A stretch of 64,000 nucleotides of DNA from Bacillota bacterium (GCA_040755005.1 JBFMBV010000002.1:13761-77760); one strand, 5' to 3'; numbered from the stretch's first letter, positions 27,233-43,200 are shown. Translations and numbers: made by a program. The notes: a model not told the origin generated them from the letters alone.

Positions 27233-27237
27233 AGCAC

Positions 27238-27265: not shown

Positions 27266-27392
27266 TTGGGGTACGTCATCTGGAGTGTCTTTCCATTAAT
27301 GGGTGGTTCTTGACCGACTTCGTCTCTTTTCATATACTCGCATTGGATCATGTACGCATCGGGATCTCTCGAACGCGAGGGAGGGGAACCAT

Positions 27393-28275: not shown

Positions 28276-28574
28276 CGGGCACACCTGGGCAAGAGCGCCT
28301 CAGGGTTCTGATTACCGTGAAGACTTACCCTATCCCTTCGGCCAAGTACGACGAGCTAGTCTGCACAGCGGGAGTAACGGAGAACGGCGATTTTGTCCGT
28401 CTCTATCCGGTCAACTTCCGTGATCTAGCTTTCCGCAGTCAATATAAGAAACCCAGTGGATCGAGGTACTTGCCCAGGGGCATCGGGGGCGTGACGTACG
28501 CAAGGAGAGCTACCCCTTTAACGGAAGCCGCCGGTGCATCGCGCACGGCGGTACTGCCGTCGGCACCCAGTTGA
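28272..28574 (+). CDS. Hypothetical ORF; only the N-terminal ~50 aa look protein-like. Possibly a gene remnant truncated at the island junction.
   Basis: ATGA overlap with the preceding stop. Sequence becomes low-complexity and GC-biased towards its end, just before the degenerate tRNA-like repeat. Confidence 0.25.
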   Translation: MTGTPGQERLRVLITVKTYPIPSAKYDELVCTAGVTENGDFVRLYPVNFRDLAFRSQYKKPSGSRYLPRGIGGVTYARRATPLTEAAGASRTAVLPSAPS

Positions 28575-28597
28575 AGTGGCCCCCGAGGGATTGTAGT

Positions 28598-28655
28598 TTG
28601 AGTCCCACTTGAGGAGCATCTACGGAACCGCCGGCAACGGCGGTTTTTGCCTGAC
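28598..28655 (+). repeat. Degenerate direct repeat of the tRNA-Asn 3' end plus its terminator (att-like junction scar)
   Basis: GGGATTGTAGTTTGAGTCCCACTTGAGGAGCATCTACGGAACCGCCGGCAACGGCGGTTTTTGCC is about 80% identical to 27200-27262 (GGGGTTGCAGGTTCGAGTCCTGCTCGAGGAGCCAAGCACAAACCGCCGGTGACGGCGGTTTTTGTG). Confidence 0.6.
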
Positions 28656-28775: not shown

Positions 28776-31700
28776 ATGACACAGGACGGCAACAACCTCG
28801 CTCCCGGCGATGTGGTCTCGGGCTTGGAGCCCTCTGAGCTCGTCGAGATCCAGCGCATTGTTCCCTTCGGCGGCAAGACGCTGGTCGAAGGCGTCGGGCT
28901 CCAGTCCCGCCGCCTGTTGAAGCGTCCCCTCACCGCGGAGGAACTGGCCGCTCTCGTCAGAGTTCGCGGCCAGCAACGCACGTTTGACGGCGATGCCCGG
29001 CTTTTCCTCCTTGGCGCCGAGGCTGAACGCATCCGTATCGCCTACCAGTTCGACCCCCTCTTCGCCGTTAACTCCAGCATCGTCGACCCCCTCCCTCACC
29101 AGGTTGAAGCAGTCTATCGATACCTCCTCCCCTTGCCGAGGATCCGGTTCCTGCTCGCCGATGACACCGGTGCCGGCAAGACGATCATGACCGGGCTACT
29201 AATCAAAGAACTGCTCTTCCGGGGAGTGCTCCAGAAGGTACTGATCATCACACCGGGGGGCCTGACGAAGCAGTGGAAGGAAGAGGAGTTGCAGGAGCGG
29301 TTTGGGCTCTACGCGCGGCTAGTGAACCGCGCGTCCTTTGATGCCGAGCCGGGCCAATTCGCCCGTTATGAAGAGGGCATCTTCGTCACGTCCATCGATT
29401 TTCTCGGACGGAATGAGGGGTGCCTCAAGGCCGCCTCTGAAACCCAGTGGGACCTCGTGGTCGTCGACGAGGCCCATAAGCTGTCGGCCTATGAGTACGG
29501 GACCAAGTTGGAAGAGAGCGAACGGTACAAGGCGGTGAAGGCGCTCGCCGGCAAGAGCGATCATCTGCTCTTCCTCACCGCGACGCCGCACCGGGGAAGA
29601 AAGGACACGTTCCGCCGGCTGCTCCTCCTTCTCGACCCGGACCTGTTCCAAAAGGACGAACATGTCACCGATCGAGTCCGCGAGCAAGCAGTGCCCTACG
29701 GAACCTCCGAGGCAGAGGACTTTGAGGATGAACGCCCGATTAGTAGGGCGCGCAACCGCTTCTTCCTTCGTCGCCTGAAGGAGGAGATGGTAGACTGGGA
29801 CAACCACGCCCTCTTCAAGGATCGTCACACGAAGACCACCGGCTACGATCTCACCCCGGAGGAGAAGACCCTGTATGACCAGGTGACAAGCTACGTCCGC
29901 TCGCAGCGCAAGCAAGCCCAGGCGCAGAAGAACCGGAACGTCGAGCTGACCCTCATGGTCATGCAGCGCCGTCTGGCCAGCAGCCTCTACGCGATTACGC
30001 GGACGTTGGAGAACCGCCTACAGGTCCTCAACGAGGTCCTTGCCATCCTGAGGGACCCGAGCCGCTCCGAGGCGGACAAAAGGAAACTGCTCAGGGGAAC
30101 TCCAGACCCCAACGAACCGCGCAGCATCACGGAATACTACGAGCTCAGCGAGGAGGAACGCGAGCGGGTCGACCGGCGGATCTCCCGTCAAGTCCTGACG
30201 AGTAACCCGGATAAGGTTCAGGAAGAACGGGATGAGGTCGAACGGCTGTTCCATCTGGCTGACAGTCTTAAGCACCATGAGGAAGCGAAGTTCGCCCAAC
30301 TCCTTGCCGTGCTCGACTCCTCTGACGTGATCCGCGCGGAGGACGAGAAGCTCCTGATCTTCACCGAGCATCGCGACACGATGGACAGCCTCGCCAAGCG
30401 GCTCGAGGAGAAGGGGTACACGGTCGCCACGATTCATGGCGGCATGGACGTGGACTCCCGTAAAGAGGCCCAACGACAGTTCAGGGCACATGCCAAGATC
30501 ATGGTTGCTACCGATGCCGCGGGCGAAGGTATCAACCTTCAGTTCTGCCGACACCTGATCAACTGGGACATCCCGTGGAACCCGAACAGGCTCGAACAGC
30601 GCATGGGGCGCATCCACCGGTACGGTCAGACCGACGATGTCTGGGTCTACAATCTGGTTGCCCAGAACACCCGGGAGGGCTCGGTCCTCCAGAAGGTCCT
30701 CTCCAAGATGGACGTGATGCGTGAGCAGATGGGGACCGACCGGGTGTACGATGTGATTGACGAGTGGCTGGAGGATGTGCCACTGCTCCGGCTGATCGAG
30801 AGTGCGATTGACGACGCAGACGAATCTGCGAGTGCCAGAGAGACCGACGCCGCCCTCTCGGCGGCATCCAACGAGAGGGCCGCTAGGCTCATAGCCCTCC
30901 AGAAGAAGACCTCCCTCGCCTCACGCCTGAGTCTTAGATCCGCGCGTGAGCTGCGAGATGCGTCAGACGAGCGCCGGCTTCAGCCACTGTTCGTCGAGCG
31001 GTTCTTCGAGCGCGCGTGGACGGCTTGCGGGGGCACAATCCGCCAGGACGACCACTTTCCGGTATGGCACATCGGTTCCACGCCGACCGCCTTGCTGGAA
31101 CTCGCCCAGGAGCGGCGGCAGCCTCTGTCAGATGACTTCGACACGCCCTTCGTCTTCGACAAGCAGCTCGTCAGCGTTGCCAGCAAGGTGCGTACCCCCG
31201 AGCGTACGAAGCTGATAGGCCCCGGACACCCGCTCTTCGACACCTTGATCGAGTGGGCGATCCGGGAGGCGCGACAGGCCTTCGCCAAAGGGGCGACCCT
31301 CGTGGACCCTAACATTGCCACACCCCAGCGGCTTTGGCTAGTCCGCTCGACCATCGAGGACGGACGTCGGCAATACCGGCAGGATCGTCGCAAGCTCCCT
31401 GCCCATGAGCGCCTGGCCGTGATCGTACAAGACCACATGGGCCTTCGCACGACCTCGCCTTCATACATGCTCAACTGCGTAGCTCCAGATGCCCCCCTAC
31501 CGGTTCCCGACGTGGCAGCGAGGTCTGCGGAGGAGATCCAGGCCTGGGCCCATGAACAGATCACCGAGCGGCAGCTCGACCAGGTCAAGACCCTCCGTGA
31601 GGAGGAGTGCAGTCTCCGCCAGGAGTATCTCAACACTGCCTTCACTGGTCTCATCCTTCAGCTGCAGGGGGAGTTGAACGACCTGCAGCAGGCGGAGCTC

Positions 31701-32315
31701 TACGGAGACGACAATGCGGAGGAGCGTGAGCGGCTCCGGCAACGAGTCAAGGATCTGAAGGTCCGACGGGCCGAACGGCTGCAAGAGCTGGAGCTCATGC
31801 TGAAGCTGACCGCCAACCTCCCTGATCTCCTGACGGAGGCCGTGGTCGCCCCTGTCCCAGTGGCTATGGTGGAGAGCGACGCAGAGGCACCGTCCAGGGG
31901 CTTCCCGATGCGACGCGACGACGAGGTCGAGGCCATTGCCATGGACGTGGCCATGCGCTACGAGCGCGGACGCGGGTGGACACCTGTAGATGTCAGCCGG
32001 GACGGAGATCACTATGACGTCCGGTCGGAAGGGCCTAGTGGAGAGAAGCGGTTCATCGAGGTCAAGGGCCGCGCCCAGTCGGGCGCCATCGTCCTGACCG
32101 GTCCCGAGGTGGACAAGCTTCGCCAGCTCGGCGAGCGGGCCTGGTTGTACGTCGTTACCTTCTGCAAAGGCGAGCGTCCCAGGCTACGCATCATCCAGGA
32201 CCCCATCGCCAATCTCAGCCCAGAGATGCTCTATCGGCAGATCCAGTACATCGTCACAGAAGACGATTGGGCACAGAAGTGCGAGGAAGTATCGGAAGGA
32301 GGCCAACCCCTATGA
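28776..32315 (+). CDS. SNF2/DEAH-family helicase with C-terminal DUF3883-like domain (defence-associated)
   Basis: Walker A LADDTGAGKT, DEAH box (VVVDEAHKL), LLFLTATPHRG, helicase-C motifs (ATDAAGEGINLQ...WNPNRLEQRMGRIHRYGQ). C-terminal DUF3883-type segment (DVSRDGDHYDVRS...RFIEVKGRAQSG). Start chosen at ATG 28776; the track ORF begins at 28647. Confidence 0.8.
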   Translation: MTQDGNNLAPGDVVSGLEPSELVEIQRIVPFGGKTLVEGVGLQSRRLLKRPLTAEELAALVRVRGQQRTFDGDARLFLLGAEAERIRIAYQFDPLFAVNSSIVDPLPHQVEAVYRYLLPLPRIRFLLADDTGAGKTIMTGLLIKELLFRGVLQKVLIITPGGLTKQWKEEELQERFGLYARLVNRASFDAEPGQFARYEEGIFVTSIDFLGRNEGCLKAASETQWDLVVVDEAHKLSAYEYGTKLEESERYKAVKALAGKSDHLLFLTATPHRGRKDTFRRLLLLLDPDLFQKDEHVTDRVREQAVPYGTSEAEDFEDERPISRARNRFFLRRLKEEMVDWDNHALFKDRHTKTTGYDLTPEEKTLYDQVTSYVRSQRKQAQAQKNRNVELTLMVMQRRLASSLYAITRTLENRLQVLNEVLAILRDPSRSEADKRKLLRGTPDPNEPRSITEYYELSEEERERVDRRISRQVLTSNPDKVQEERDEVERLFHLADSLKHHEEAKFAQLLAVLDSSDVIRAEDEKLLIFTEHRDTMDSLAKRLEEKGYTVATIHGGMDVDSRKEAQRQFRAHAKIMVATDAAGEGINLQFCRHLINWDIPWNPNRLEQRMGRIHRYGQTDDVWVYNLVAQNTREGSVLQKVLSKMDVMREQMGTDRVYDVIDEWLEDVPLLRLIESAIDDADESASARETDAALSAASNERAARLIALQKKTSLASRLSLRSARELRDASDERRLQPLFVERFFERAWTACGGTIRQDDHFPVWHIGSTPTALLELAQERRQPLSDDFDTPFVFDKQLVSVASKVRTPERTKLIGPGHPLFDTLIEWAIREARQAFAKGATLVDPNIATPQRLWLVRSTIEDGRRQYRQDRRKLPAHERLAVIVQDHMGLRTTSPSYMLNCVAPDAPLPVPDVAARSAEEIQAWAHEQITERQLDQVKTLREEECSLRQEYLNTAFTGLILQLQGELNDLQQAELYGDDNAEERERLRQRVKDLKVRRAERLQELELMLKLTANLPDLLTEAVVAPVPVAMVESDAEAPSRGFPMRRDDEVEAIAMDVAMRYERGRGWTPVDVSRDGDHYDVRSEGPSGEKRFIEVKGRAQSGAIVLTGPEVDKLRQLGERAWLYVVTFCKGERPRLRIIQDPIANLSPEMLYRQIQYIVTEDDWAQKCEEVSEGGQPL

Positions 32316-34237
32316 AGATCAAGTCGGTACGCATTCGTAACTTCCGCTCCGTGAGAGGGCAGCTCGTTGAGCTTGGCGACTACACATGCTTTGTGGGAGC
32401 TAATGGTTCAGGGAAGTCTAACGTGCTTCATGCTCTTAACGTTTTCTTCGGAACAGACACCCCTGGCCTCGACACCCACGAACTAGAAGAGGAGGATTTT
32501 CACAACAAGAACACAGGAGAGCCTGTAGAGATAACAGTTACGTTTTGTGACCTCTCGCCGCAAGCCAAAGAGGAACTAAAGCACTATGTGCGCCACGACC
32601 AACTGGTAGTCTCAGCTGAAGCGGGTTTTGACGCTGATACCCGCAAGGCTGCGGTCAAGCAGTATGGACGCAGGATGGTGATCAGGGAGTTTGCGCGCTT
32701 CTTTGAGGCTGAGAAGAAGACAGGCACGAAGGTCTCGGAACTCAAGGAGATATATGCGGACATACAAAAGAGATACTCACAACTGCCTGTTACAGGAACA
32801 AGGGAAGCCATGATCACGGCGCTTCGGTCATATGAGGAGAGTCACCAGGAGGAGTGTGAGGAGCTTCCGAGCAGCGACCAGTTCTATGGAGTAGCCAAAG
32901 GAACAAACCACCTCGAGAAGTACATCCAATGGGTCTATCTCCCAGCAGTCAAAGACGCATCGAGCGAACAGGCTGAAGCCAAAACCACGGCCCTCGGAAA
33001 GCTCTTGGCACGCACCGTTCGATCCAAGGTCAACTTCAAGGAGTCGATTGACGCTATCCGTGGAGAAACACGAGAAAAGTACGAAAAGCTTCTGGTCGAT
33101 AGTCAGGAGGAGCTGGCAGAAGTATCTCAAGCTCTAAGAGATCGCTTTGTGCTGTGGGCACACCAGGACGCGACTCTCCGGCTGGAATGGCAACAGGATC
33201 CTGAGAAGGCAGTACGTGTGGACGAACCATTCGCTCAAGCCATTCTCGGTGAGGCAGGCTTTGAGGGGGAACTCACCCGTTTCGGACACGGACTTCAACG
33301 GTCCTTTCTCCTGGCGCTTCTGCAAGAACTCTCCGGTAGTAACATCGAGGCGGGTCCGCGGCTGATTCTCGCGTGTGAGGAACCTGAGCTTTACCAGCAC
33401 CCCCCTCAGGCAAGGCACCTATACAACGTGCTGCTGAGACTGAGCGAACAGAACTCTCAGATTCTTATTGCGACCCATAGCCCCTACTTCGTGTCCGGTG
33501 AAGGCTTTGAGAGTGTACGAATGGTTCGCAAGTCTAACGGGGCGTCTTCGATCACGAGGGCGACACATGACGAAGTATCGAAGAGAATCGCGAAGGTTCG
33601 AGGAGAGCAGCCTATAAGGGCCAGCGGCCAACTGGCCAAGATCCATCAGGCGCTCCAGCCGGGACTTAGCGAGATGTTCTTCGCCTCCCGAGTCATATTT
33701 GTTGAAGGTCTTGAAGACATTGCCTATATAACAACATACTTACATCTCCTAGGCTTGTGGGACGAGTACAGGAGGCTCGGTTGCCACTTGATCTCGACTG
33801 GTGGGAAGAACGAAGTGCTTCTGTCCTTGGCGGCTGTGAAGTGCCTCCAGATCCCGGCTTTCGTTGTCTTCGATTCAGACGATGACAAACCGGACAAGAA
33901 CGGCAGCAAGCAGAAACATCGAAAGGACAACTCTGCAATCCTAAGTCTATGTGACGTTGACAGTCTGCAAGTGTCTCCGTCCGATACATTCTGGGGAGAC
34001 TCCGCGGTCATGTGGTCCTCTGATATTGGGCAGGTGGTTGCGCAGGAGATTGGAGCCGAGGACTGGGACAGGTATCGCTCTGAGGCTGACGCGAAGTATG
34101 GGCACGTAGGGAACCTCCGCAAGAACATGCTACACATCGCATCGAGCCTGCAAATAGCTTGGGAAGCTGGGAAAGAGTCGGACTCGCTAAGGAAGGTCTG
34201 CAACAAGATCATGGAGTTTGCTCAGAAGAATGGATAG
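32312..34237 (+). CDS. OLD-family ATP-dependent nuclease (N-terminal ABC-type ATPase + C-terminal Toprim)
   Basis: Walker A GANGSGKSN. Toprim motifs (IFVEGLEDIAYI ... FVVFDSDDD). Noticeably AT-richer than its neighbours. ATG 32312 overlaps the helicase stop; RBS GGAAGGAGG. Confidence 0.8.
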   Translation: MKIKSVRIRNFRSVRGQLVELGDYTCFVGANGSGKSNVLHALNVFFGTDTPGLDTHELEEEDFHNKNTGEPVEITVTFCDLSPQAKEELKHYVRHDQLVVSAEAGFDADTRKAAVKQYGRRMVIREFARFFEAEKKTGTKVSELKEIYADIQKRYSQLPVTGTREAMITALRSYEESHQEECEELPSSDQFYGVAKGTNHLEKYIQWVYLPAVKDASSEQAEAKTTALGKLLARTVRSKVNFKESIDAIRGETREKYEKLLVDSQEELAEVSQALRDRFVLWAHQDATLRLEWQQDPEKAVRVDEPFAQAILGEAGFEGELTRFGHGLQRSFLLALLQELSGSNIEAGPRLILACEEPELYQHPPQARHLYNVLLRLSEQNSQILIATHSPYFVSGEGFESVRMVRKSNGASSITRATHDEVSKRIAKVRGEQPIRASGQLAKIHQALQPGLSEMFFASRVIFVEGLEDIAYITTYLHLLGLWDEYRRLGCHLISTGGKNEVLLSLAAVKCLQIPAFVVFDSDDDKPDKNGSKQKHRKDNSAILSLCDVDSLQVSPSDTFWGDSAVMWSSDIGQVVAQEIGAEDWDRYRSEADAKYGHVGNLRKNMLHIASSLQIAWEAGKESDSLRKVCNKIMEFAQKNG

Positions 34238-37166
34238 CAGCAGCACTATCGGTTGGTGTCCGCGTTTGATCGAGGTGGCACTCCCCATCCGTGAAATCTC
34301 GGCAGAGAGCGTGCGGGACAAATCGCTGCGGCACGGCCATATCTCCACGCTTCACCTCTGGTGGGCGCGTCGACCGCTGGCTGCGTCACGAGCGGTTGTG
34401 TTCGCGTCGCTCGTGCCCGATCCCGACGACCCGCGTTGTCCGGCCGACTTCAGGGCAGCGGTGGAGCGTCATCTCAAGACGCACGTGCCGGCGGAACTGA
34501 GATACTACCTTCGCGGCCGCCACAGTCACCGTGATGAGGACCCGTACCGGCCCTACGATGGCATGCCGGACACGCTGCGGAACCGCCTCCTCATGTTCAT
34601 CGCCAAGTGGTCGCCGGAGTCCCTGACGTTTGAGGCCGGCAAGCGGAAGAACGCGCCCGTGCCGAAAGAGCTCCTGGACGACCGCTCCCTCGTGAAATGG
34701 GAGACCTCCGATCCTGAGAACGCCCAAGGCCAGGAGATCCTCCGCATCGCCCGCCAGCTTGTGAAGGCCGCCCACAGGGGCGACGTCCCGAGGGTGCTCG
34801 ATCCCTTTGCCGGCGGCGGGGCGATTCCGCTGGAGGCCGGGAGGCTCGGCTGTCAGGCCATTGCCAACGACTACAACCCGGTCGCGTATCTCATCCTTAG
34901 GGCGACCTGCGAGTTTCCGCAGAGGTACGGTAAGCCAGGCAAGAGGACGGTGGTCGTGGAGGAGTTTGGCAAGAAGGCCGAACGCGAAATCCAGGTTCAA
35001 AACGTCCTCGTCCACGACTTCGCACAGTGGGCGAACTGGATTCTCGAGCGGGCTCGCCAGAGGATTGGGCATCTGTATCCTCCCGGCATGGACGGCAGGC
35101 CGGTTGTGGGCTACCTCTGGGCCCGCACTGCGCCGTGCTCGAACCCCACCTGCCGTGGCGAGATTCCCCTGTTACGGAGCCTTCTGGTCTGCAACAAGAA
35201 GGGGAAGCAAGTCGCGCTGACGATGGATGTGGACAGCAAGCGGAAGACGGTTCGATTCGGGATCGCGGAAGGCAACGCCATCAGGATGACTGACGGCACC
35301 ATGCAGAGTCGCGGAAACGTTTTGTGCCCGTACTGCGGACAGGTGACCCCTGTCGCCGACCTACGGACCGCTGGACGCGCGGGCCGCATGAGCGAGCAGA
35401 TGGTATGTGTCGTGGTGGAAGGAAAGGGTGGAAAGGACTACCGGGAGGTGGAGTACACAGACCTCACGGGGATTGCCTGCGCAGCGAAGATCGAGGTTGA
35501 GTGTCCCGGGGAGAGAATTCCTGAGAACCAGTGGAATGTGAAGACCTGGCTGTATGGAATGAAGACCTGGGGTTCCCTCTTCAACCCCCGCCAGCTCGTG
35601 GCCATGCAGACGTTTGTCTCCTGTCTCCACGAGGCGCTAGGAGGGATGAAGAGAGAGATCGCCGACGACGAGTACCGGAAGGCGGTTGGAGTCTGTCTGG
35701 GGCTTTGGCTGAACCGGATTGCCCAGCGAAGTTCGAATGTAGGAATTTGGGACACAACCCGAGAGACCTTTGCTCATCCCTTTGGCCGCCAGGCTATCCC
35801 TATGACGTGGGACTATCCCGAGGCGAACCCTTTTTCAGAGACAACAGGGGGTGCGGAAGGCGGACTGGACTGGATGAAGCGGGTGATCCTGCATGAGTCA
35901 GGGAATTCCCTACCTGCCTACGTGACACGCAGTGATGGCGCGGCCCTTCCCTTCAGGGAAGCATCTTGCGACTTGGTCGTCACCGATCCACCCTATTTTG
36001 ACGCCATCGCTTACGGTGACCTCTCCGATTACTTCTACGTTTGGCTCAAGCGCGGCCTTGGCGATGTCATCCCTGAGGCCCTGATCACGCCGCTCACGCC
36101 CAAGGCTGATGAGGCGACTGCACTCAAGCATCGTCATTCCGGCGACGGAGAGAAGGCGGATGCTCACTTCAAGTCAAAGTTGGCGGCGGTACTAGCGGAG
36201 GCACACCGGATCTTAAGGCCTGATGGCATCGTCTCGATCATGTTTGCACACCAGTCCACAGAGGCGTGGACGGCCCTGGTTTCGGCGATCTTCGAGGCTG
36301 GGTTGACGGTGCACGCGACGTGGCCGATTGACACGGAGCTCACTACGGCCTTGAAGGCCAGCATGTCGGCTCTGTCGTCGTCGGTAACCGTTACCTGCCG
36401 TCCGCGCGCTGTAGCAGGTGCTATATCCTCCAAGGCGGTCCGCAGTGAGATCGAGGAGGTAGTGGGCCGTTCCGTAAAGCGCTTCTGGTCCTACGGCTTT
36501 CGCGGCGCAGACCTCATCGTTGCGTGCTATGGACCCGCTGTGGGGGTCTTTGGGAAATACGAGCGAGTGGAGAAGGCAGATGGCACCCCTGTCGGCATCC
36601 CCGAACTCCTGGTGCTTGCCAAGCAGGCCGCCCGTGACGCGATCGCCGGGGATTTCCGCGGAGACAACTTCTCAACCCTCTACTACGTCTGGGCGAACCT
36701 CTACGGGGCGGCGGAGCAGGCTTGGGATGACGCCCGGCTGGTCGTGCAGATCGGAGGAGACGAGGACAACGCCATGGAGGTTGCCCGCGGGCATGGGATC
36801 TTTGTGGTGGACGGTCCGAAATGCCGCCTTGCGCTCCTAGAGGACCGCGCCAATCGCCGAGGACTTGGCATGGATCAGAACCCGCCACACATTGACGCGC
36901 TACATCGCAGCATGCTCCTCTGGAAGAAGGAAAAGCGTAAGGATCTAGTCGAGTATCTCCGTGAGCGCGACCTCTTGGAGGATGGCCCGTTCTGGAAGCT
37001 GGCGCAGGCCCTGTTCGAGGTCCTTCCCCGCGATCTGGAGGACTGGAAGCTGGTCAGCGCTTTGCTCGGCGAGCGCCAGACTTTGCGTACGGAGGGCAAG
37101 CGTAGCGCGTACAGGGATGAGCAACAGGAGCTGTCCTTCGACGAGGGAGGCGGTGAGCGAACATGA
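34230..37166 (+). CDS. DUF1156-type DNA methyltransferase (N6-adenine/N4-cytosine class, DPPY motif)
   Basis: DUF1156-like N-terminus (RLIEVALPIREISAESVRDKSLRHGHISTLHLWWARRP). SAM motif I VLDPFAGGGAIPLEA. Catalytic motif IV DLVVTDPPY. ATG 34230 overlaps the OLD stop (ATGGATAG). Confidence 0.75.
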   Translation: MDSSSTIGWCPRLIEVALPIREISAESVRDKSLRHGHISTLHLWWARRPLAASRAVVFASLVPDPDDPRCPADFRAAVERHLKTHVPAELRYYLRGRHSHRDEDPYRPYDGMPDTLRNRLLMFIAKWSPESLTFEAGKRKNAPVPKELLDDRSLVKWETSDPENAQGQEILRIARQLVKAAHRGDVPRVLDPFAGGGAIPLEAGRLGCQAIANDYNPVAYLILRATCEFPQRYGKPGKRTVVVEEFGKKAEREIQVQNVLVHDFAQWANWILERARQRIGHLYPPGMDGRPVVGYLWARTAPCSNPTCRGEIPLLRSLLVCNKKGKQVALTMDVDSKRKTVRFGIAEGNAIRMTDGTMQSRGNVLCPYCGQVTPVADLRTAGRAGRMSEQMVCVVVEGKGGKDYREVEYTDLTGIACAAKIEVECPGERIPENQWNVKTWLYGMKTWGSLFNPRQLVAMQTFVSCLHEALGGMKREIADDEYRKAVGVCLGLWLNRIAQRSSNVGIWDTTRETFAHPFGRQAIPMTWDYPEANPFSETTGGAEGGLDWMKRVILHESGNSLPAYVTRSDGAALPFREASCDLVVTDPPYFDAIAYGDLSDYFYVWLKRGLGDVIPEALITPLTPKADEATALKHRHSGDGEKADAHFKSKLAAVLAEAHRILRPDGIVSIMFAHQSTEAWTALVSAIFEAGLTVHATWPIDTELTTALKASMSALSSSVTVTCRPRAVAGAISSKAVRSEIEEVVGRSVKRFWSYGFRGADLIVACYGPAVGVFGKYERVEKADGTPVGIPELLVLAKQAARDAIAGDFRGDNFSTLYYVWANLYGAAEQAWDDARLVVQIGGDEDNAMEVARGHGIFVVDGPKCRLALLEDRANRRGLGMDQNPPHIDALHRSMLLWKKEKRKDLVEYLRERDLLEDGPFWKLAQALFEVLPRDLEDWKLVSALLGERQTLRTEGKRSAYRDEQQELSFDEGGGERT

Positions 37167-40000
37167 GTGACACTCTCAAACCCTGGTATGCAGTTGCGAC
37201 ACCTCACGAGGACATCCGCGAAGGACGGCTCGCAGAGGCCATCTTTGCGGCAAACGTCTGGGCGGTCGTCCAGGGTACGGCGCCCGAGATCTACCTCGAC
37301 CCTGAGGAGTTTTTCCGTAAGACCTACCTCACCACCGGACTAACCACGGTGCTGAACCGCGTTGCGGGCGCGCTCCGACGCAACGGCGAGGTTGGAGACC
37401 GCATCATCAGCCTCCAGACAGCCTTCGGCGGTGGGAAGACGCACACGCTGGTGGCCCTGTGGCATCTAGCGAAGTATGCCGACCGCTTGGCGGGCTCGCC
37501 TCACTCAGATGCCCTTCGGAGAGCCATCGGCGGCCGATTCCCGGAGAAGGTGAAGGGCGTCGCCGTCTTCACCAACCAGACCTGCGATGCGACCCAGGGA
37601 CGTAGGGTCGCAGATGGCGTTCACCTGCGCACGTTGTGGGGAGAGTTAGCCTACCAGCTCGGCGGGAAGGAGCTCTACGAACGCGTCCGTGCCAATGACG
37701 AAAGCCAGCGCGTGCCTCAAGGGCTCTTCTTCGAGATCCTGCAGGCCGCCGCACCCTGCCTGATCTTGCTGGACGAGCTTGCCGACTACTGCGTTGGCGC
37801 GGCGGCAGTGCCGGTAGGTGACACGAGCCTGGCAGACCAGACCGTGTCCTTCATCCAGCAGCTGACCGAGTCCGTCCAGCAGGTGCCGGGCGTAGTGGTG
37901 GTCGCCACCCTGCCGGCGAGCAAGCACGAGGTCGCCCAAAGCGAGAAGGGCCAGGAGGCCTTCGTGACACTGGAGAAGCGCTTCCAGCGTCTCGGAGCCG
38001 ACGTCAAGCCGGTGGCGGATGTGGAAATCTACGAGGTTGTCCGGGCCCGCCTCTTCGAATCCATCGCACCGGACACTGCTCCGGACTATCCTAAGAAGGT
38101 TGCCCAGGCGTACCAGAGTATGTACGCGGCGCACTCGGGTGAGGTACCCCCCGAGGCCGCCAAAAACACGTACCGCGAGCAGCTCGAGCGCGCCTATCCG
38201 TTCCATCCCCTGCTCATCGACGCACTCTACACGCGCTGGGGCAGCCACCCCGATTTCCAACGGACGCGGGGTGTATTGCGCCTGCTGGCGAGCATCGTAG
38301 GCGACCTTTGGAAGCGCCGGCAGGGAAGCACCGAGACCCAACACCTGATTCAGCCGTGCCATGTCCGCTGGTCTGTCGATGCGCTGCAGGCTGCGCTCAC
38401 ACGACTCTGGGGACCCGCCTATCAATCCGTTGCTGCTGCCGACGTCATCGGGGAGCGGTCCAATGCCGGCATCTTCGACGAAGAACGTGGTGGCGACTAC
38501 CGAAGCGAGTCCATCGGCAAGGGGCTGGGGTCTGCGATCATCCTCGGCTCATTCGGCGGCCAAGGTGGCCGCAGCGGGTTCAGCGCTAGAGATCTGAAGC
38601 TGGCATGCTCCCGGCAGGGTTTAAACTGGAGTTACACGGACGGGGCTCTGCTGGAGCTGGAGAACCGCTGTTTCTACCTCCACACGGTGACGTCCGGAAG
38701 CCTCGGCAAGCGCTACTGGTACGGCACAAAACCGACCCTCAACAAGCTGGTCGTCCAGTACCGTCAGCAGAGCGCCAAGGAGGACTTCGGCGAGGAGATA
38801 CTGGAGGACCTCCGGGCTGATTCCCAGAAGAGCCCCATGGCTGGTGCGACGTGGCGGGTGGTCGTCAACCCCGCAGAAGACCTGCCAGAGCAGAAGTCTC
38901 TCACGCTACTGATCCTTCCGCCGTCCCTGGCCTGGGACGAGAACGGCGGGGCGAAGGACGTGGTCCAGGCACGCGTACAGGCGATCAGCACCAGGTGCGG
39001 CGGAAGGGACCGCCTGTATCGGAACACGCTCCTGTTTCTGGTTGGGACCACTCGCGGGCTCACTAAGCTGCGGCAGGCCTATCGGGAGCAGGCAGCGCTG
39101 GAAGGCGTGCGTGCGGACTACTGGGAACAGCTCGATGAGGAGCAGCGCGAGGAGCTCAAAAAACGACTGGATGCGGCGCGCAAAGCCGCCCTGGAAGCGC
39201 TGGGCCCCGCCTACACCGTTGCCCTCCGAGTGCGCGGGCAAGAAGTAGAGCCATGCGTGCTCTCGGACGCGCGGCGAACCTTCCCAGAACACCTTGGTTA
39301 TGTGTGGACGACGCTCGTCGAGGACGAGGAGTGGATTCTCCGTCGTGTTGGGTCGGTGACGCTGGAGAGCACGGGCCTCATCCCGAAGGAAGGCGGCCTT
39401 CGCTTGAAGGATGCCGTCGAGGCCTTCCTGCGCTTCACGGACAAGCCCATGGTCGCGACCAAGGAGGCGGTGACCACCGGGCTCGCCCAGGCTTGCCTGG
39501 ACGGACTGGTTGGCATCGGCAGAGGTGGAAGCCTGTCGACACTCCTGACCCGCCATTGCAGGCAGTCGGTGTCGCTCGACCCCAACGAAGACGGTGTGTG
39601 GATCATCCCTCCGTTCACACCGGAGCCGACGATGGTTCCTGGGGCTGAGGGAACCGCCGGAGTTGGGATCAATGTCGGGGGACCGGGCGGCCCAGGTGGA
39701 ACAGGCTCCAGCACGGGCAGTGGGGAAGGTGCGGCAACGACCGCCACGGGTAAGCCGGGAATCGAGGGCACGGTGCGTCGGTTCGTCGTCCGCGGCGAGG
39801 TTCCCGTGGAGAGCTGGGGTGAGCTCTTTCGCTGCTTCGTTGGGCCTGCTGCACGGATGAACCTGAAGAAGTTGCAGCTCGGCGTGCAGTTCGAGATGGT
39901 GCTCCCTGAGGAGCGGGTGCTGAGCGAGACCGATCACACGCTCAAGACGATCAAAGAGGCCGCCCGCCAGCTGGGGCTCACCTTCGAGGTGGGGGAGTAA
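37163..40000 (+). CDS. DUF499-family ATPase (BrxC/PglY-like) of a BREX-related, methylation-associated defence system
   Basis: Walker A LQTAFGGGKTHTL and Walker B LILLDELADY in a DUF499-like context; about 945 aa; ATGA overlap with the methyltransferase stop; RBS GAGGGAGG. Confidence 0.75.
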   Translation: MSDTLKPWYAVATPHEDIREGRLAEAIFAANVWAVVQGTAPEIYLDPEEFFRKTYLTTGLTTVLNRVAGALRRNGEVGDRIISLQTAFGGGKTHTLVALWHLAKYADRLAGSPHSDALRRAIGGRFPEKVKGVAVFTNQTCDATQGRRVADGVHLRTLWGELAYQLGGKELYERVRANDESQRVPQGLFFEILQAAAPCLILLDELADYCVGAAAVPVGDTSLADQTVSFIQQLTESVQQVPGVVVVATLPASKHEVAQSEKGQEAFVTLEKRFQRLGADVKPVADVEIYEVVRARLFESIAPDTAPDYPKKVAQAYQSMYAAHSGEVPPEAAKNTYREQLERAYPFHPLLIDALYTRWGSHPDFQRTRGVLRLLASIVGDLWKRRQGSTETQHLIQPCHVRWSVDALQAALTRLWGPAYQSVAAADVIGERSNAGIFDEERGGDYRSESIGKGLGSAIILGSFGGQGGRSGFSARDLKLACSRQGLNWSYTDGALLELENRCFYLHTVTSGSLGKRYWYGTKPTLNKLVVQYRQQSAKEDFGEEILEDLRADSQKSPMAGATWRVVVNPAEDLPEQKSLTLLILPPSLAWDENGGAKDVVQARVQAISTRCGGRDRLYRNTLLFLVGTTRGLTKLRQAYREQAALEGVRADYWEQLDEEQREELKKRLDAARKAALEALGPAYTVALRVRGQEVEPCVLSDARRTFPEHLGYVWTTLVEDEEWILRRVGSVTLESTGLIPKEGGLRLKDAVEAFLRFTDKPMVATKEAVTTGLAQACLDGLVGIGRGGSLSTLLTRHCRQSVSLDPNEDGVWIIPPFTPEPTMVPGAEGTAGVGINVGGPGGPGGTGSSTGSGEGAATTATGKPGIEGTVRRFVVRGEVPVESWGELFRCFVGPAARMNLKKLQLGVQFEMVLPEERVLSETDHTLKTIKEAARQLGLTFEVGE

Positions 40001-40252: not shown

Positions 40253-43200
40253 ATGGCGCAGCAAACCAGACCACGCGTCACCCAGCGGGCGTACTCACTC
40301 CGGTTGCGGGGGACCACACCGGGCGACACATCATGGCGGGATGCGCTCTGGCAGACCCATGAGGCTGTCAACAAAGGTGCCAAGGCATTCGGTGATTGGC
40401 TGCTTACTTTGCGTGGCGGCCTGGATCACACACTTGCGGCCGCCAAGACCGACGGAGAACGCCGCCAACGACGCATTCTCTTGGCTCTGTCATGGCTGTC
40501 GGTGGAATCAAAACGCGGAGCTCCGGATGACTTCATTATCAGGCACGGCGGACACGACCGAGGTAAAGCTGTAACCGGGGCACTTGAGGAAATCCTAGTG
40601 CGTCGGGGTGTGGACCAGAGTGAGCTAGCTGAGTGGAAGCGCGACTGCTCCCCGTCCTTGCACGCAGCTATTCGCGAGGATGCCGTTTGGGTGAATCGGA
40701 GCAGGGCATTTGATGGTGCGGTCAACTCAATAGGTTGCTCACTCACGCGCGAGGAGGCGTGGGACATGCTGGAACGCTTCTTCGGAAGCCGTGAAGCCTA
40801 TCTGGCTCCAGCGAAAGGGTCCGAAGATGAGTCTTCCGACACAGGGCAAGAGGAGAAAGCAAAGGACCTCGTCCAGAAGGCAGGGCAATGGCTCAGCAGC
40901 CGGTTCGGCACCGGCAAAGGAGCGGACTTCTCCCGCATGGCCGAGGTCTATCAAGAGATCGCGAGTTGGGCTGGCGCACACTCACCGGACAAGCCGGGCA
41001 CGCATGCCATTGCCAGCCTTGCGACCGCCCTCAGCGAGTTCACTCCTGCATCAGACAACCTACAGGGCGTGCTTGGTCTGATCAGCGGTCCAGGATACAA
41101 GAGCGCGACGCGCAATCTTCTCACTCAGATCGCCGCCAAGACCACCGTTACTCAACAAGATTTTACGAAACTGAACGCAACGGCGACCGCGGATAAAGGA
41201 AAATGCATGACGAACACCGGATCGAAGGGGCAACGAGCATACTCCGACACCATCCTCAAGGACGTGGAGTCGGCTTGTGGGTTCACCTACCTGCAGGACG
41301 GAGGGCCTGCTAGACACCCGGAGTTTGCAGTCATGCTTGACCACGCAGCTCGCCGCGTTTCCTTGGCCCACACGTGGATCAAGCGGGCTGAGGCGGAACG
41401 TCGCCGGTTTGAGGAAGAAGCGAAGCGTATGGCCAATGTCCCATCTCCTGCTAGGGAGTGGCTGGACTCGTTCTGCTCGGAACGTTCGGGAACGTCAGGT
41501 GCTTTGGAACCCTACCGTATCCGGCGGCGGGCGGTGGACGGGTGGAAGGAAGTGGTCACCGCATGGAGTAGGAGTTCATGTAGTACCGGCGCCGACCGGA
41601 TCGCCGCCGCTCGGGCGTTGCAGGACGCTCCAGAGATCGACAAGTTCGGCGACATTCAGCTATTCGAGGCCCTCGCTGAAGACGACGCCGTGTGCGTTTG
41701 GCACAAGGATGGCGATGCCGCGAAACCTCCCGACCTTCAGCCGCTGCTTGACTACGTTTTTGGCGCTGAAGCGGAGTTCAAGAAACGGCACTTCAAGGTG
41801 CCGGCGTACCGCCACCCCGATGCGCTTTTGCATCCGATCTTCTGCGATTTTGGGAAGTCCCGCTGGGACATCTGCTTCGACGTCCAGAAGAACGTGCAAA
41901 CGCCCTTTCCGCGGGCGCTTTGCCTGACGCTTTGGACCGGGAGCGGGATGGTAGCAGTTCGGTTGTGCTGGCAGTCCAAGAGGCTTGCATGTGATTTGGC
42001 CCTTGGAAACAACGCGAGGAATGCAGGTGCTTCCGCGGTCACCCGCGCGGACAGATTGGGACGAGCTGCCTCAAATGTGACAAAGAATGATGAGGTAAAT
42101 ATCGCGGGGCTCTTTGAACAAGCAGACTGGAATGGCCGGTTGCAGGCTCCAAGACAGCAGTTGGAAGCCATCGCCGCACGTGTGGCCAAACACGGCTGGG
42201 ATGATAAGGCCGTACAGATGCAATATCGTATCCAATGGTTGGTGTCTTTCTCTGCCAAGCTTCAACCGCAGGGCCCGTGGCTCACCTATGGAATGGCAAA
42301 TAACCTGAAGCTAGACCAGAAGAACGGTGATATTGTTATCGCGCCGCCTAACACCAAGAATGAATGGCGTGGGCTGGCTTACCCGTTCTGGCATCCTGAT
42401 AATCAGGAAGGCCGTAAGGGATTGGCCAAGCACTGCCTCTCCCGTTTGCCCGGTCTTCGCGTGCTTTCTGTCGACCTTGGTCACCGTTATGCTGCGGCGT
42501 GCGCGGTGTGGGAAGCGGTAAACACCGAGCAGATCAAGGTAGCGTGCCAGGCCGCCGGACATGATGAGCCGAAGGAGAGCGATCTCTACCTGCATCTCAA
42601 GAGAAAGGCGACGAAGCAGAAGAGGGGCGAAAACGTCGAGGTCGAGAGAACCACTATCTATCGCCGCATCGGCGCGGACACATTGCCGGACGGTACGCAG
42701 CATCCCGCCTCGTGGGCGCGCCTGGACCGCCAGTTCCTCATCAGGCTCCAGGGCGAGGAAAAGGGAGCTCGCGCGGCATTAAACGAGGAGATATGGGCGG
42801 TTCATCAACTGGAGGCTGAACTGGGCAGGACCGTGCCAATTATCGACCGACTGGTCAGATGGGGTCAGTCCGGCAAGCAAGAAACGAGACTCGATGCGCT
42901 ACGTAATCTGGGGTGGGCACCGGCAAACGAGGTTCAAGGCTCTGACGAGATGGACGAAGGCGAAGTCCGTAAGCCATCGCGCTCCGTTGACGAACTGATG
43001 TCCTCCGCCGTCCGGACCATGCGCCTCGCGCTCAAGCGCCATGGCGACCGGGCGCGAATCGCCTTTGCCATGACGGCAGCCTATAAACCTTTGCCCGGCG
43101 ACCGCAGATACTACTTCACCGAGGCGAGAGATGCTTCGGCGAACGAAGATGCTAATGCGCGGAACGGTACGCATATCGAGTCTATCCAAGATGCTCTGCT

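What the first reader, a model, noticed from the sequence alone, without database searches (positions are those of the whole stretch)
28776..40000. Four-gene, translationally coupled defence operon: SNF2-DUF3883 helicase, OLD nuclease, DUF1156 methyltransferase and DUF499 ATPase
The DUF499 ATPase (BrxC/PglY-like) plus DUF1156 MTase (DPPY) plus a large SNF2/DEAH helicase with a DUF3883 tail is the signature of a BREX-related, methylation-associated immunity family. That family was first predicted from defence-island analysis. I recall it being characterised recently as MADS, but I cannot verify the component list from memory. Here the module is unusually compact (four genes). An OLD-family ATPase-Toprim nuclease is embedded between the helicase and the MTase. 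All four genes overlap by 4 nt at their junctions (ATGA/ATGGATAG), so they are expressed as one unit. Whether the OLD nuclease is an integral effector of this variant or a nested independent system (class-1 OLD / Gabija GajA-like / fused PARIS-like) is open. A candidate new architecture for a methylation-based defence system.
Basis: partly seen in the sequence, partly recalled or inferred. Interest (0 to 1): 0.85.

Follow-up and report, generated by a model that had tools for sequence, protein, structure and literature searches.

The report
Hma defence operon carrying OLD nuclease
This is a known three-gene, BREX-related anti-phage system (Hma) with a separate, swappable OLD nuclease gene lodged between its first two genes; published surveys already describe this arrangement, so it is a clear example and not a new kind of system.

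Summary
Four same-strand genes at 28776-40000 overlap at every junction (ATGA, ATGGATAG, ATGA) and have the predicted domains.

The helicase, methyltransferase and ATPase match PADLOC HmaA, HmaB and HmaC (E 1e-188, 4e-139, 9e-132). That is the Hma system, renamed "Type-1 BREX-related" in 2026. It is not MADS: only weak mad2/mad3 hits, and MAD3 scores 38.8 bits against a cutoff of 420.

The core is three genes; the fourth is cargo. It is a class-1-like OLD nuclease (best solved relative Thermus scotoductus OLD, 6P74) with intact ATPase and Toprim motifs.

- Hma loci with 86-87% identical HmaC carry other genes in the same slot: TIR-SLATT, a UvrD helicase, or Schlafen plus a PHP-ATPase.
- OLD relatives at 73-78% identity sit between the mod and res genes of type III-like restriction systems.
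- None of 80 genomes with more distant relatives has Hma nearby.
- OLD GC3 is 0.60, against 0.75-0.78 for the hma genes.

Gene embedding in Hma, including TOPRIM/OLD nucleases, has been published (Payne 2024; Liu 2024; Rakesh & Krishnan 2026). Verdict: a new member of a known kind, of modest interest.

The parts
28776..32315 (+). hmaA: Swi2/Snf2 helicase with a C-terminal NOV_C (DUF3883) PD-(D/E)xK nuclease domain. Walker A is DTGAGKT (130-136) and the DEAH box is at 230-233. The candidate nuclease residues are D1081, E1095-x-K1097 and E1111.
   Evidence: Pfam gives SNF2-rel_dom, Helicase_C and NOV_C at residues 1051-1140. PADLOC HmaA scores 1.9e-188 over residues 8-1129. The start equals NCBI's call, MEW6307569.1. 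NCBIfam scores for RapA, DrmD and DpdE are all far below their cutoffs.
32312..34237 (+). Embedded cargo gene: an OLD-family ABC-ATPase/Toprim nuclease of class-1 type. Walker A is GANGSGKS (29-36), Walker B region is CEEPE (355-359), the Toprim glutamate is E465 (VEGLED), and the DxD motif is D521/D523.
   Evidence: Pfam gives AAA_15 (2.8e-45) and OLD-like_TOPRIM. PADLOC Old scores 1.1e-48. The best PDB sequence hit is 6P74, Thermus scotoductus OLD, at 1.9e-24, with the Toprim residues aligned. The AlphaFold model (pLDDT 71.7) has 6P74 as its best Foldseek hit at 5.7e-20, followed by GajA and the Retron-Eco8 effector. GC3 is 0.60 against 0.75-0.78 for the flanking hma genes.
34230..37166 (+). 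hmaB: a DUF1156 N6-adenine-type DNA methyltransferase. The SAM-binding motif is DPFAGGG (190-196) and the catalytic motif is DPPY (586-589). The central region, about aa 351-750, is mosaic and variable, and is probably the specificity region.
   Evidence: Pfam gives DUF1156 (8.1e-23) plus weaker UPF0020/MethyltransfD12 matches; the N6_N4_Mtase match (26.6 bits) falls just under its 26.7-bit cutoff. PADLOC HmaB scores 4.2e-139. Compared with the closest locus L169, identity is 94-100% in aa 1-350 and 751-950 but 44-80% in aa 351-750.
37163..40000 (+). hmaC: a DUF499 AAA+ (ORC/Cdc6-like, BrxC-related) ATPase. Walker A is GGGKT (89-93) and Walker B is LLDE (201-204). There is no N-terminal HEPN fusion.
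   Evidence: Pfam gives DUF499 at 2.8e-28. PADLOC HmaC scores 9.2e-132 over residues 4-688. The sequence equals NCBI MEW6307572.1.
32312..32315 (+). ATGA start/stop overlap between hmaA and old. The SD GGAGG lies at 32298-32302, inside the hmaA tail.
   Evidence: Read from the sequence. In related loci the same ~135-nt hmaA tail, ending in an SD and ATGA, precedes the OLD gene.
34230..34237 (+). ATGGATAG 8-nt overlap between old and hmaB.
   Evidence: Read from the sequence. The same 8-nt overlap appears in the gene calls of L081, L085, L168 and L170, and the 3'-end sequences are compared.
37163..37166 (+). ATGA start/stop overlap between hmaB and hmaC.
   Evidence: Read from the sequence. The same hmaB/hmaC 4-nt overlap is seen in L169, L175 and L176.
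28626..28649 (+). Terminator-like GC hairpin about 125 nt upstream of hmaA. It is a 92% copy of the hairpin that follows tRNA-Asn (27239-27262) and probably insulates the operon from upstream transcription.
   Evidence: Direct repeat family D11 and the sequence itself. The first copy was scored as terminator-like; the second has a shorter T run and was not scored.

Best explanation
The locus is an Hma system (helicase-methylase-ATPase, also called a Type-1 DUF499-centred BREX-related system) with one extra gene in its known cargo slot between hmaA and hmaB. That gene is an autonomous, class-1-type OLD nuclease.

Proposed working of the core, inferred from relatives and not shown here:
- HmaB, a DPPY adenine methyltransferase, marks host DNA at a short motif. 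It is probably loaded or activated by the AAA+ ATPase HmaC. This is what has been shown for the sister Type-2 system MANTIS.
- HmaA, a Snf2 translocase fused to a PD-(D/E)xK nickase, attacks unmarked invading DNA.

Proposed working of the cargo: the OLD protein is a separate second-line defence, an ABC ATPase sensor coupled to a Toprim DNA nickase/nuclease. It is co-transcribed and translationally coupled with Hma, so the two layers are expressed and inherited together. It does not need Hma, and Hma does not need it.

The whole unit lies in a roughly 21-kb low-GC defence island beside tRNA-Asn, together with a type V-B CRISPR-Cas locus.
For: Identity of the core:
- Near full-length PADLOC matches to HmaA, HmaB and HmaC, with the expected Pfam domains.
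- All catalytic motifs are intact.
- NCBIfam models for the Type-2 (MANTIS/Gao_RL) proteins, DrmD, RapA and MAD3 all score far below their cutoffs.

OLD is a bona fide OLD nuclease: 6P74 is the best hit by both sequence and fold, and the Toprim E/DxD and Walker motifs are conserved.

OLD is cargo and not core:
1. HmaC relatives at 86-87% identity carry different genes between hmaA and hmaB. L174 has TIR+SLATT. L176 has a UvrD helicase. L171 has Schlafen plus a PHP/ABC ATPase plus Schlafen. L081 has Schlafen plus OLD. L177 has a RAMP cassette in the hmaB|hmaC slot. Only the 96% relative L169 shares the window's layout.
2. OLD relatives at 73-78% identity lie between the Mod and Res genes of a conserved type III-like RM operon (L083/84, L087-L089, L101). 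They interleave with the Hma-embedded copies in an NJ tree.
3. Among 80 genome loci with 46-70% identical relatives, none has HmaB or HmaC within 10 kb. Their neighbours are SbcC/SbcD-like, AAA_27, nSTAND3-Mrr, RmuC, HsdM and others.
4. L092/L093 keep OLD with only a fragment of hmaA and no hmaB.
5. OLD GC3 is 0.60, against 0.75-0.78 for hmaA/B/C and 0.83-0.88 for host genes.
6. HmaA keeps its own nuclease domain.

Literature:
- Hma was defined in Payne 2021.
- 62.7% of Hma loci carry embedded genes, many of them ABC-ATPase defences.
- HmaA alone defends against T4 through its NOV_C nickase, and the hma region is an insertion hotspot.
- TOPRIM/OLD are listed as 'backup' effectors in BREX/BR loci.
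- The MANTIS mechanism is described.
- A single class 1 OLD suffices for defence in V. cholerae.
Against: - In at least seven independent loci (72-95% OLD identity) the OLD gene holds the same position immediately upstream of hmaB; the 8-nt overlap itself was seen in the gene calls of four of them. OLD identity roughly tracks Hma identity: L169 is 95 against 96-97, the L081 group is 76 against 80-87, and L094 is 72 against 65-69. The association is therefore old and stable within one lineage, which would also fit a functional link.
- No experiment shows that Hma discriminates self by methylation. In Halomonas, HmaB overexpression did not modify T4 detectably.
- The NJ tree has no support values.
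- The sample of nearest Hma relatives is small (six loci).
- No promoter was identified.
Confidence: 0.8

Rival explanations
1. The OLD nuclease is an integral effector of a distinct four-gene Hma variant. HmaBC would sense or mark DNA, and OLD, not HmaA or in addition to it, would carry out the cleavage as part of one complex.
For: - The position is conserved; the 8-nt overlap with hmaB is seen in the gene calls of L081, L085, L168 and L170.
- There is rough co-divergence with the Hma genes.
- The OLD start is embedded in the hmaA tail, which supplies its SD.
- Rakesh & Krishnan note that other nucleases, TOPRIM among them, may compensate in loci where the helicase lacks its nuclease.
Against: - HmaA here retains NOV_C with D/ExK/E residues.
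- Hma loci that are 86-87% identical have unrelated cargo in the slot.
- The same OLD subfamily works in Mod-OLD-Res operons and in non-RM contexts.
- The distinct GC3 points to a separate origin.
- The Hma core is widespread without OLD.
Confidence: 0.1
2. OLD is a dedicated guard of methylation-based helicase-nuclease systems, in the manner of PrrC or PARIS. It would be kept silent while Hma (or the type III-like RM) is intact, and unleashed when a phage anti-restriction protein disables the host system.
For: - The close OLD subclade is found inside two different methyltransferase plus SF2 helicase-nuclease operons, Hma and Mod-Res.
- There are precedents: PrrC in EcoprrI, and Ocr triggering PARIS and Gabija, as discussed. 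The 'backup suicidal effector' idea appears.
Against: - No interaction data exist.
- Relatives at 46-60% identity, and some at 69-73%, live beside SbcCD-like or unrelated genes without any RM partner.
- Some of those copies still carry a decayed hmaA-tail scar, so they moved out of Hma and persisted.
- Embedding could be purely selfish hitch-hiking, as argued.
Confidence: 0.2
3. The locus is a MADS system, or another named BREX-like system: MANTIS/Gao_RL, DISARM or BREX proper.
For: The domain vocabulary is shared (DUF499-like ATPase, methyltransferase, SF2 helicase). There are weak PADLOC hits to mad2 (5e-11), mad3 (5e-18), DrmD and BrxH.
Against: - MADS has eight genes, with MAD6-8 mandatory, and none is present. 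NCBIfam MAD3 scores 38.8 against a cutoff of 420.
- The MANTIS-type NCBIfam models score 172 against 1200, 193 against 1000 and 153 against 1100. There is no small DUF3780/3870 gene and no PLD domain.
- DrmD scores 371 against 610.
- There is no PglZ, DrmB or DrmC among the neighbours.
Confidence: 0.02

Closest known systems
Hma system (HmaA/HmaB/HmaC; Payne et al. 2021), also called the Type-1 DUF499-centred BREX-related (BR) system (Rakesh & Krishnan 2026)
   Same: The three core proteins, their order and their strand are the same. The Snf2 helicase carries a C-terminal NOV_C PD-(D/E)xK nuclease, the methyltransferase is a DUF1156 DPPY enzyme, and the ATPase is a DUF499 AAA+ protein. The hmaA|hmaB gap is used as a cargo slot.
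   Different: Nothing essential differs. This copy has a non-HEPN HmaC and a single cargo gene, a class-1-type OLD. Its hmaB central region differs from its 96% relative L169.
Hma-embedded candidates and other embedded defences (Payne et al. 2024: HEC-01 to HEC-09; HEC-04 is an ABC ATPase-TOPRIM fusion)
   Same: An ABC-ATPase/Toprim defence gene nested in the same orientation between hma genes. HEC-04 needs its Walker A and its Toprim metal site for defence.
   Different: The window protein is a classical OLD. It matches the PADLOC Old model at 1e-48 and 6P74 best, its Toprim lies at residues 456-523, and it is 641 aa long. It is not an obvious HEC-04 orthologue, since HEC-04's catalytic residues are E319/D375/D377. 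HEC-01A matches only at 6e-21.
Class 1 OLD nucleases (P2 Old, Thermus scotoductus OLD 6P74, Vibrio cholerae Vc OLD)
   Same: [quoted passage not shown] There is no UvrD/GajB partner and no retron. It is the best match by both sequence and fold.
   Different: It is longer (641 aa, against 528 aa for the deposited TsOLD chain) and only about 16% identical to TsOLD in the structural alignment. Class 1 is defined as a solitary gene away from other defence genes, whereas this one is translationally coupled inside a defence operon.
MANTIS / Gao_RL (Type-2 BR system; Shaw et al. 2026 preprint)
   Same: It is a sister system with a DUF499 ATPase, a methyltransferase and a helicase-nuclease. It is the only member of the BR group with a worked-out mechanism: ATPase-dependent hemimethylation of asymmetric sites, and restriction by the helicase-nuclease.
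   Different: MANTIS has a fourth core protein, MtsB, and a PLD (HKD) nuclease on the helicase. Here the nuclease is a C-terminal PD-(D/E)xK domain and there is no MtsB. NCBIfam scores are far below the cutoffs.
PrrC embedded in the type Ic EcoprrI hsd operon
   Same: An ABC-ATPase-type nuclease nested within a restriction-modification operon. It is the textbook model for a backup that fires when restriction is inhibited (discussed).
   Different: PrrC is an anticodon nuclease that physically associates with EcoprrI. No such coupling is shown or implied for this OLD, whose relatives also live outside RM loci.
MADS (mad1-8; Maestri et al.)
   Same: It is a methylation-associated defence.
   Different: [quoted passage not shown] None of these is present here.

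Membership tests
Hma / Type-1 BR system | HmaA: a Swi2/Snf2 helicase with a C-terminal NOV_C (DUF3883) PD-(D/E)xK nuclease | tested here: met
   PADLOC HmaA scores 1.9e-188 over 8-1129 of 1179 aa. Pfam gives SNF2-rel_dom, Helicase_C and NOV_C at 1051-1140. D1081, E1095xK1097 and E1111 are present. The corresponding residues were shown to be essential in Halomonas HmaA.
Hma / Type-1 BR system | HmaB: a DUF1156-type N6-adenine methyltransferase | tested here: met
   PADLOC HmaB scores 4.2e-139. Pfam DUF1156 scores 8.1e-23. The FAGGG and DPPY motifs are present.
Hma / Type-1 BR system | HmaC: a DUF499 AAA+ ATPase | tested here: met
   PADLOC HmaC scores 9.2e-132. Pfam DUF499 scores 2.8e-28. Walker A is GGGKT and Walker B is LLDE.
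Hma / Type-1 BR system | The three genes are co-oriented in one locus, with at most a few embedded genes between them | tested here: met
   The genes overlap on the + strand, with one embedded gene. Payne 2024 allows up to three embedded genes per gap.
Hma / Type-1 BR system | Absence of the Type-2 and Type-3 markers: a standalone DUF3780/3870 gene, an HKD/PLD nuclease on the helicase, and PglZ | tested here: met
   There is no PLD or PglZ Pfam hit in the operon or its neighbours. NCBIfam Type-2 models are far below their cutoffs. Overlapping junctions leave no room for a small extra ORF.
Hma / Type-1 BR system | Anti-phage activity and hmaB-dependent DNA methylation | not testable with these tools
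   This needs phage challenge and SMRT/Nanopore methylome work. Published evidence exists only for HmaA alone in Halomonas and for the Type-2 sister system.
MADS | An eight-gene mad1-8 operon with MAD6, MAD7 and MAD8 mandatory | tested here: not met
   PADLOC gives only partial hits to mad2 (5.3e-11, the SAM motif) and mad3 (4.7e-18, the P-loop region). NCBIfam MAD3 scores 38.8 bits against a cutoff of 420.
MANTIS / Gao_RL (Type-2 BR) | MtsA, MtsB, MtsC and MtsD, where MtsD is a PLD-helicase and MtsB is a small DUF3780/3870 protein | tested here: not met
   NF042962 scores 172 against a cutoff of 1200. NF042963 scores 193 against 1000. NF042964 scores 153 against 1100. There is no MtsB-like ORF.
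OLD family nuclease | [quoted passage not shown] | tested here: met
   Pfam AAA_15 covers residues 1-394 and OLD-like_TOPRIM covers 456-523. E465, D521 and D523 align with the TsOLD residues. The fold search puts 6P74 first at 5.7e-20.
OLD Class 1 | No dedicated partner: no UvrD/GajB helicase and no retron RT/ncRNA | tested here: met
   The neighbours are hmaA and hmaB. No Rfam retron or other ncRNA is found.
OLD Class 1 | A solitary gene that is not near other defence genes (Schiltz 2019 definition, as quoted) | tested here: not met
   The gene is embedded in and translationally coupled to Hma, and lies next to a type V-B CRISPR-Cas locus. It is class-1-like in protein terms but not in context.
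Gabija (OLD Class 2, GajA/GajB) | An adjacent UvrD/PcrA-like GajB helicase | tested here: not met
   There is no UvrD-family gene in the operon. GajA models score much lower than the Old model, 1e-29 against 1e-48.
PARIS (AriA/AriB) | An AriA ABC ATPase plus an AriB DUF4435-type Toprim, as a separate gene or a fusion | tested here: inconclusive
   The PADLOC AriA model matches the ATPase half at 1.5e-47. The Toprim half, however, matches OLD-like_TOPRIM and TsOLD, with no DUF4435 or AriB hit among those shown.
RapA/HepA housekeeping helicase; DISARM DrmD | A score above the NCBIfam equivalog cutoff | tested here: not met
   RapA scores 188.7 against a cutoff of 576. DrmD scores 370.8 against 610.

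The most novel reading that the evidence does not exclude
The most novel reading concerns Hma loci in general and has two parts.

1. Hma may be a structured cassette platform. In related multi-cargo loci, each extra cargo gene is preceded by a conserved ~46-nt nested hairpin. About 60 nt further on lies a sharply bounded ~135-nt copy of the last ~45 codons of hmaA, which ends in the SD and ATGA that couple the cargo. Cargo could therefore be swapped and stacked by recombination at defined junctions.

2. This particular OLD subfamily may be a specialist lodger or guard of methyltransferase plus helicase-nuclease systems. It moves between Hma and type III-like Mod-Res operons, and it leaves hmaA-tail scars where it escapes to other loci.

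The window holds the simplest, single-cassette state of such a platform.
Probability: 0.2. Interest if true: 0.55.

Novelty: new member of a known kind. Interest (0 to 1): 0.25.

Why it matters
For annotation, the locus should be labelled Hma (Type-1 BR) plus an embedded OLD nuclease, not MADS and not a new system.

Biologically, it is a clean, minimal example of layered immunity in a single transcription unit: one cargo gene with perfect translational coupling. It sits beside a type V-B CRISPR-Cas locus in a high-GC Bacillota MAG.

That makes it a convenient construct for three questions:
- Does an Hma system really use methylation for self/non-self discrimination? This is unproven for Type-1.
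- Does the embedded OLD act independently, or as a backup when Hma is inhibited?
- How are cargo genes exchanged at the hmaA|hmaB junction?

None of this changes current understanding; it fits what has been published since 2021.

Tried and rejected
- **MADS, MANTIS, DISARM, BREX proper and RapA** were considered and rejected on PADLOC and NCBIfam scores and on missing partner genes.
- **OLD as an obligate Hma component** was tested and found unlikely. I examined the neighbourhoods of 80 genome loci and 80 metagenome loci holding OLD relatives, and of the six nearest HmaC relatives.
- **Plasmid searches** with HmaC and OLD gave only distant hits, at most 35% and at most 30% identity, and added nothing.
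- **Exact look-up of the window's OLD protein** in the contig index failed. The accession came from the cluster look-up instead.
- **The promoter and terminator scan** found no convincing promoter for hmaA and no internal terminator beyond chance expectation.
- **Rfam** found only tRNA-Asn in the window, and nothing at the inter-cassette hairpin of related loci.
- **The AlphaFold model of OLD** is of only moderate quality: pLDDT 71.7, and the ATPase insertion at about residues 193-347 is poorly modelled. I used it only to confirm family and nearest class.
- **The NJ tree of OLD proteins** has no bootstrap support, so I used it only to show that the Hma and type III-like contexts do not separate cleanly.
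I judged this too rough to quote as a frequency.
Full report
**1. Observation**

The region 28776-40000 holds four + strand genes:
- 28776-32315 (1179 aa)
- 32312-34237 (641 aa)
- 34230-37166 (978 aa)
- 37163-40000 (945 aa)

The junctions are ATGA, ATGGATAG and ATGA. Each internal start has a purine-rich Shine-Dalgarno-like motif 9-13 nt upstream.

The starts of genes 1, 2 and 4 are identical to NCBI's calls for this record, a Bacillota MAG on a 112,966-bp contig (MEW6307569.1, MEW6307570.1, MEW6307572.1). The start of gene 3 is supported by conservation. In relatives, homology begins at residue 1, and independent gene calls place the start 8 nt before the OLD stop.

Pfam confirms every predicted domain:
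- Gene 1: SNF2-rel_dom, Helicase_C and NOV_C (formerly DUF3883).
- Gene 2: AAA_15 and OLD-like_TOPRIM.
- Gene 3: DUF1156 plus methyltransferase motifs.
- Gene 4: DUF499.

**2. What the core is**

PADLOC models give near full-length matches to HmaA (1.9e-188), HmaB (4.2e-139) and HmaC (9.2e-132).

Hma (helicase, methylase, ATPase) was defined by Payne et al. 2021, who found 1,638 instances in 26 phyla. Rakesh & Krishnan 2026 re-described it as the Type-1 DUF499-centred BREX-related (BR) system.

The Type-1 signature is present. The helicase carries a C-terminal PD-(D/E)xK domain, and there is no PLD domain, no small DUF3780/3870 gene and no PglZ.

The catalytic motifs are intact:
- HmaA: DTGAGKT, DEAH, and D1081/E1095xK1097/E1111.
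- HmaB: FAGGG and DPPY.
- HmaC: GGGKT and LLDE.

NCBIfam equivalog models for related systems all score far below their cutoffs:
- RapA: 189 against 576
- DrmD: 371 against 610
- MANTIS-type DUF499: 172 against 1200
- MANTIS-type DUF1156: 193 against 1000
- MANTIS-type PLD-helicase: 153 against 1100
- MAD3: 38.8 against 420

MADS is an eight-gene operon with MAD6-8 mandatory.

**3. What the fourth gene is**

Gene 2 is an OLD-family nuclease.
- It matches the PADLOC Old model at 1.1e-48, with GajA models much weaker.
- Its best solved relative by sequence is Thermus scotoductus class 1 OLD, 6P74 (1.9e-24). The Toprim glutamate (E465) and DxD (D521/D523) align.
- An AlphaFold model (pLDDT 71.7) also finds 6P74 first (5.7e-20), followed by GajA and the Retron-Eco8 effector.
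- It has no UvrD/GajB partner and no retron. As a protein it is class-1-like, but it does not meet the class-1 criterion of being solitary.

**4. Core component or cargo?**

I collected relatives in both directions.

(a) *Distant OLD relatives.* Of 80 species-representative genomes encoding 46-70% identical proteins, none has HmaB or HmaC within 10 kb. Their neighbours are SbcC-like ATPases (28 loci), SbcD-like phosphoesterases, AAA_27, nSTAND3-Mrr, RmuC, HsdM, DUF2130 and others.

(b) *Close OLD relatives (69-95% identity).* These fall into two host operons.
- Hma: L169/L170, L081/L082, L085, L086, L090, L094 and L168.
- A conserved type III-like Mod-OLD-Res operon: Thermosynechococcus L083/84, L087=L167, L088=L166, L089 and L101.
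- A few others lie beside SbcCD-like genes.
- An NJ tree interleaves the Hma and Mod-Res copies (no support values).

(c) *Nearest Hma relatives.* Only the 96% HmaC relative L169 has the same four-gene layout. At 86-87% HmaC identity the hmaA|hmaB slot holds:
- TIR plus SLATT (L174)
- a UvrD-type helicase (L176)
- Schlafen, a PHP/ABC ATPase and Schlafen (L171-173)
- Schlafen plus OLD (L081)
- L168 holds DarT, Macro and OLD (HmaC about 81% identical, by contig match).

L177 and L168 also carry a RAMP cassette after hmaB.

(d) *Hma decay.* L092/L093 keep OLD with only the last 94 codons of hmaA and no hmaB.

(e) *Composition.* OLD GC3 is 0.60. The values are 0.78, 0.75 and 0.78 for hmaA, hmaB and hmaC, 0.83-0.88 for host genes and 0.63-0.67 for the cas genes.

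Together these results show that the gene is an exchangeable lodger in a known cargo slot.

The counter-evidence is that, within one Hma lineage, the OLD gene has kept the same position upstream of hmaB (the 8-nt overlap is seen in four gene calls) and has diverged roughly in step with Hma. The association can therefore be long-lived. A functional link, such as a guard role, cannot be excluded.

**5. Literature**

The arrangement is already described.
- Payne et al. 2024 found embedded genes in 62.7% of 1,485 Hma systems. ABC-ATPase defences were the commonest family, and they validated an ATPase-TOPRIM fusion, HEC-04.
- Liu et al. 2024 showed that Halomonas HmaA alone protects against T4 through its NOV_C nickase. 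They found insertions in 66.5% of hma loci and called the region a defence-gene insertion hotspot.
- Rakesh & Krishnan 2026 list TOPRIM/OLD modules as "backup suicidal effectors" embedded in BREX and BR loci in at least 1,242 taxa.
- The only mechanistic study in the BR group is on the Type-2 system MANTIS. It shows ATPase-dependent hemimethylation of asymmetric sites, with restriction by the helicase-nuclease.
- A single class 1 OLD is sufficient for defence in V. cholerae and acts as a nickase.

**6. Likely mechanism**

Inferred steps:
- HmaC loads or activates HmaB, which methylates adenines at a host-specific motif.
- The central third of HmaB is mosaic relative to its 96% relative (44-80% identity against 94-100% in the flanks). 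This fits swapped specificity.
- HmaA translocates on unmodified DNA and nicks or cuts it.
- OLD acts independently as an ATP-dependent Toprim nuclease, possibly triggered by phage functions that disable the first layer.

Shown here: domain content, intact motifs, operon structure, and the cargo nature of OLD.

Not shown: any activity, the methylation motif, or any OLD-Hma interaction.

**7. Context**

The operon lies in a roughly 21-kb low-GC island. The order is:
- dnaG, rpoD, a PIG-L family gene and tRNA-Asn (27158-27232) on the left;
- the island itself, holding a frameshifted DUF488 gene and a truncated ORF, then Hma with OLD, then cas12b, cas4/1, cas2 and a 24-repeat CRISPR array;
- a histidine kinase gene at 49027 on the right.

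**8. Verdict**

The locus is a new member of a known kind (Hma/Type-1 BR with an embedded OLD nuclease) and is of modest interest.

The only mildly new points come from related loci and are not part of the window. They are the alternation of this OLD subfamily between Hma and Mod-Res operons, and the duplicated hmaA tail plus hairpin at cassette junctions.

Noticed in passing
window 40253-48701: A type V-B CRISPR-Cas locus lies directly downstream. It comprises cas12b (40253-44659), a cas4-cas1 fusion (44690-46408), cas2 (46410-46715) and an array of 24 36-nt repeats (GCCACCGACATCGAAACGGATCTGATCGACGGACAC) at 47034-48701. The Cas12b product is 1468 aa, whereas the best-matching PADLOC Cas12b model has 1009 positions and aligns across residues 9-1459. 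That is roughly 450 aa of extra sequence. One repeat, at about 48305, is degenerate. One spacer-repeat unit is duplicated: 48234-48325 and 48523-48614 are 98% identical.
   Followed up: partly
window 27158-28650: The island's left edge starts at tRNA-Asn, which is followed by a terminator hairpin (27239-27262). A 92% copy of that hairpin lies at 28626-28649. The two copies bracket 1.39 kb that holds a DUF488 gene apparently split by a frameshift in a T run near 27580 (ORFs 27303-27740 and 27544-28275). A truncated ORF (28273 to about 28430) follows. No integrase is present in the island.
   Followed up: partly
L081 9787-9995; L086 9784; L090 1657-1886; L168 9766-9995; L171 2489-2697; L085 about 4635-4766: In multi-cargo Hma loci the second cargo gene is preceded by a conserved ~46-nt nested hairpin (GCTCTGCAACGAGCTCTGAAG...CTTCAGAGCTGCTTCAGAGC). 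About 60 nt further on lies a sharply bounded ~135-nt duplicate of the last ~45 codons of hmaA, running from PRLRIIQDPIS... to ...QGEEV, followed by the cargo-specific SD and ATGA. L081 and L171 share the first cargo, the hairpin and the tail, but differ in the second cargo (OLD against a PHP-ABC ATPase). This looks like cassette exchange or stacking at a defined junction. No Rfam family matches, and only four distinct hairpin sequences are available, so covariation is weak. The window itself has no hairpin; its real hmaA tail plays this role.
   Followed up: partly
L166 7116-14778; L167 2806-10377; L083/L084; L089; L101: The same OLD subfamily (73-78% identical to the window's) is embedded between the Mod (N6_N4_Mtase, about 880-960 aa) and Res (ResIII, about 945 aa) genes of a conserved type III-like restriction-modification operon, with 4-nt overlaps. 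I found no description of this in the papers I read, which covered Hma, BREX, DISARM and type I RM.
   Followed up: partly
L091 8093-8153; L095 465-525; L097 9941-10001; L092 2255-2536: Close OLD relatives that now sit outside Hma still carry a decayed copy of the hmaA tail just upstream of their start, and often the ATGGATAA hmaB-start remnant at their stop. Their neighbours are SbcCD-like genes, an Mrr-AAA gene and others. This suggests that these copies left an Hma locus.
   Followed up: partly
window 35280-36480 (HmaB aa 351-750): HmaB is mosaic relative to the closest locus L169. Identity is 94-100% in aa 1-350 and 751-950 but 44-80% in between, while HmaA, OLD and HmaC are 95-97% identical. 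This is consistent with a swapped target-recognition region.
   Followed up: partly
L085 6689-8737; L168 11916-15473; L090: In some Hma loci HmaB carries an insertion of about 200 aa, between window residues 242 and 256, with a Pfam Y1_Tnp (IS200-like HUH transposase) hit.
   Followed up: no
L168 15492-21562; L177 2747-10004: A cassette of three RAMP-domain proteins plus a roughly 1,020-aa protein is embedded between hmaB and hmaC in two Hma loci. It resembles a type III CRISPR effector-like module with no array in view.
   Followed up: no
L003-L011 and 20 further loci (e.g. L004 7268-9976); L014 11972-13213; L097 5672-9846; L095 2844-7621: More distant members of this OLD family (46-60% identity) are very often adjacent to SbcC/Rad50-like ATPases and SbcD-like phosphoesterases; 28 loci share one upstream SbcC-like family.
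   Followed up: partly
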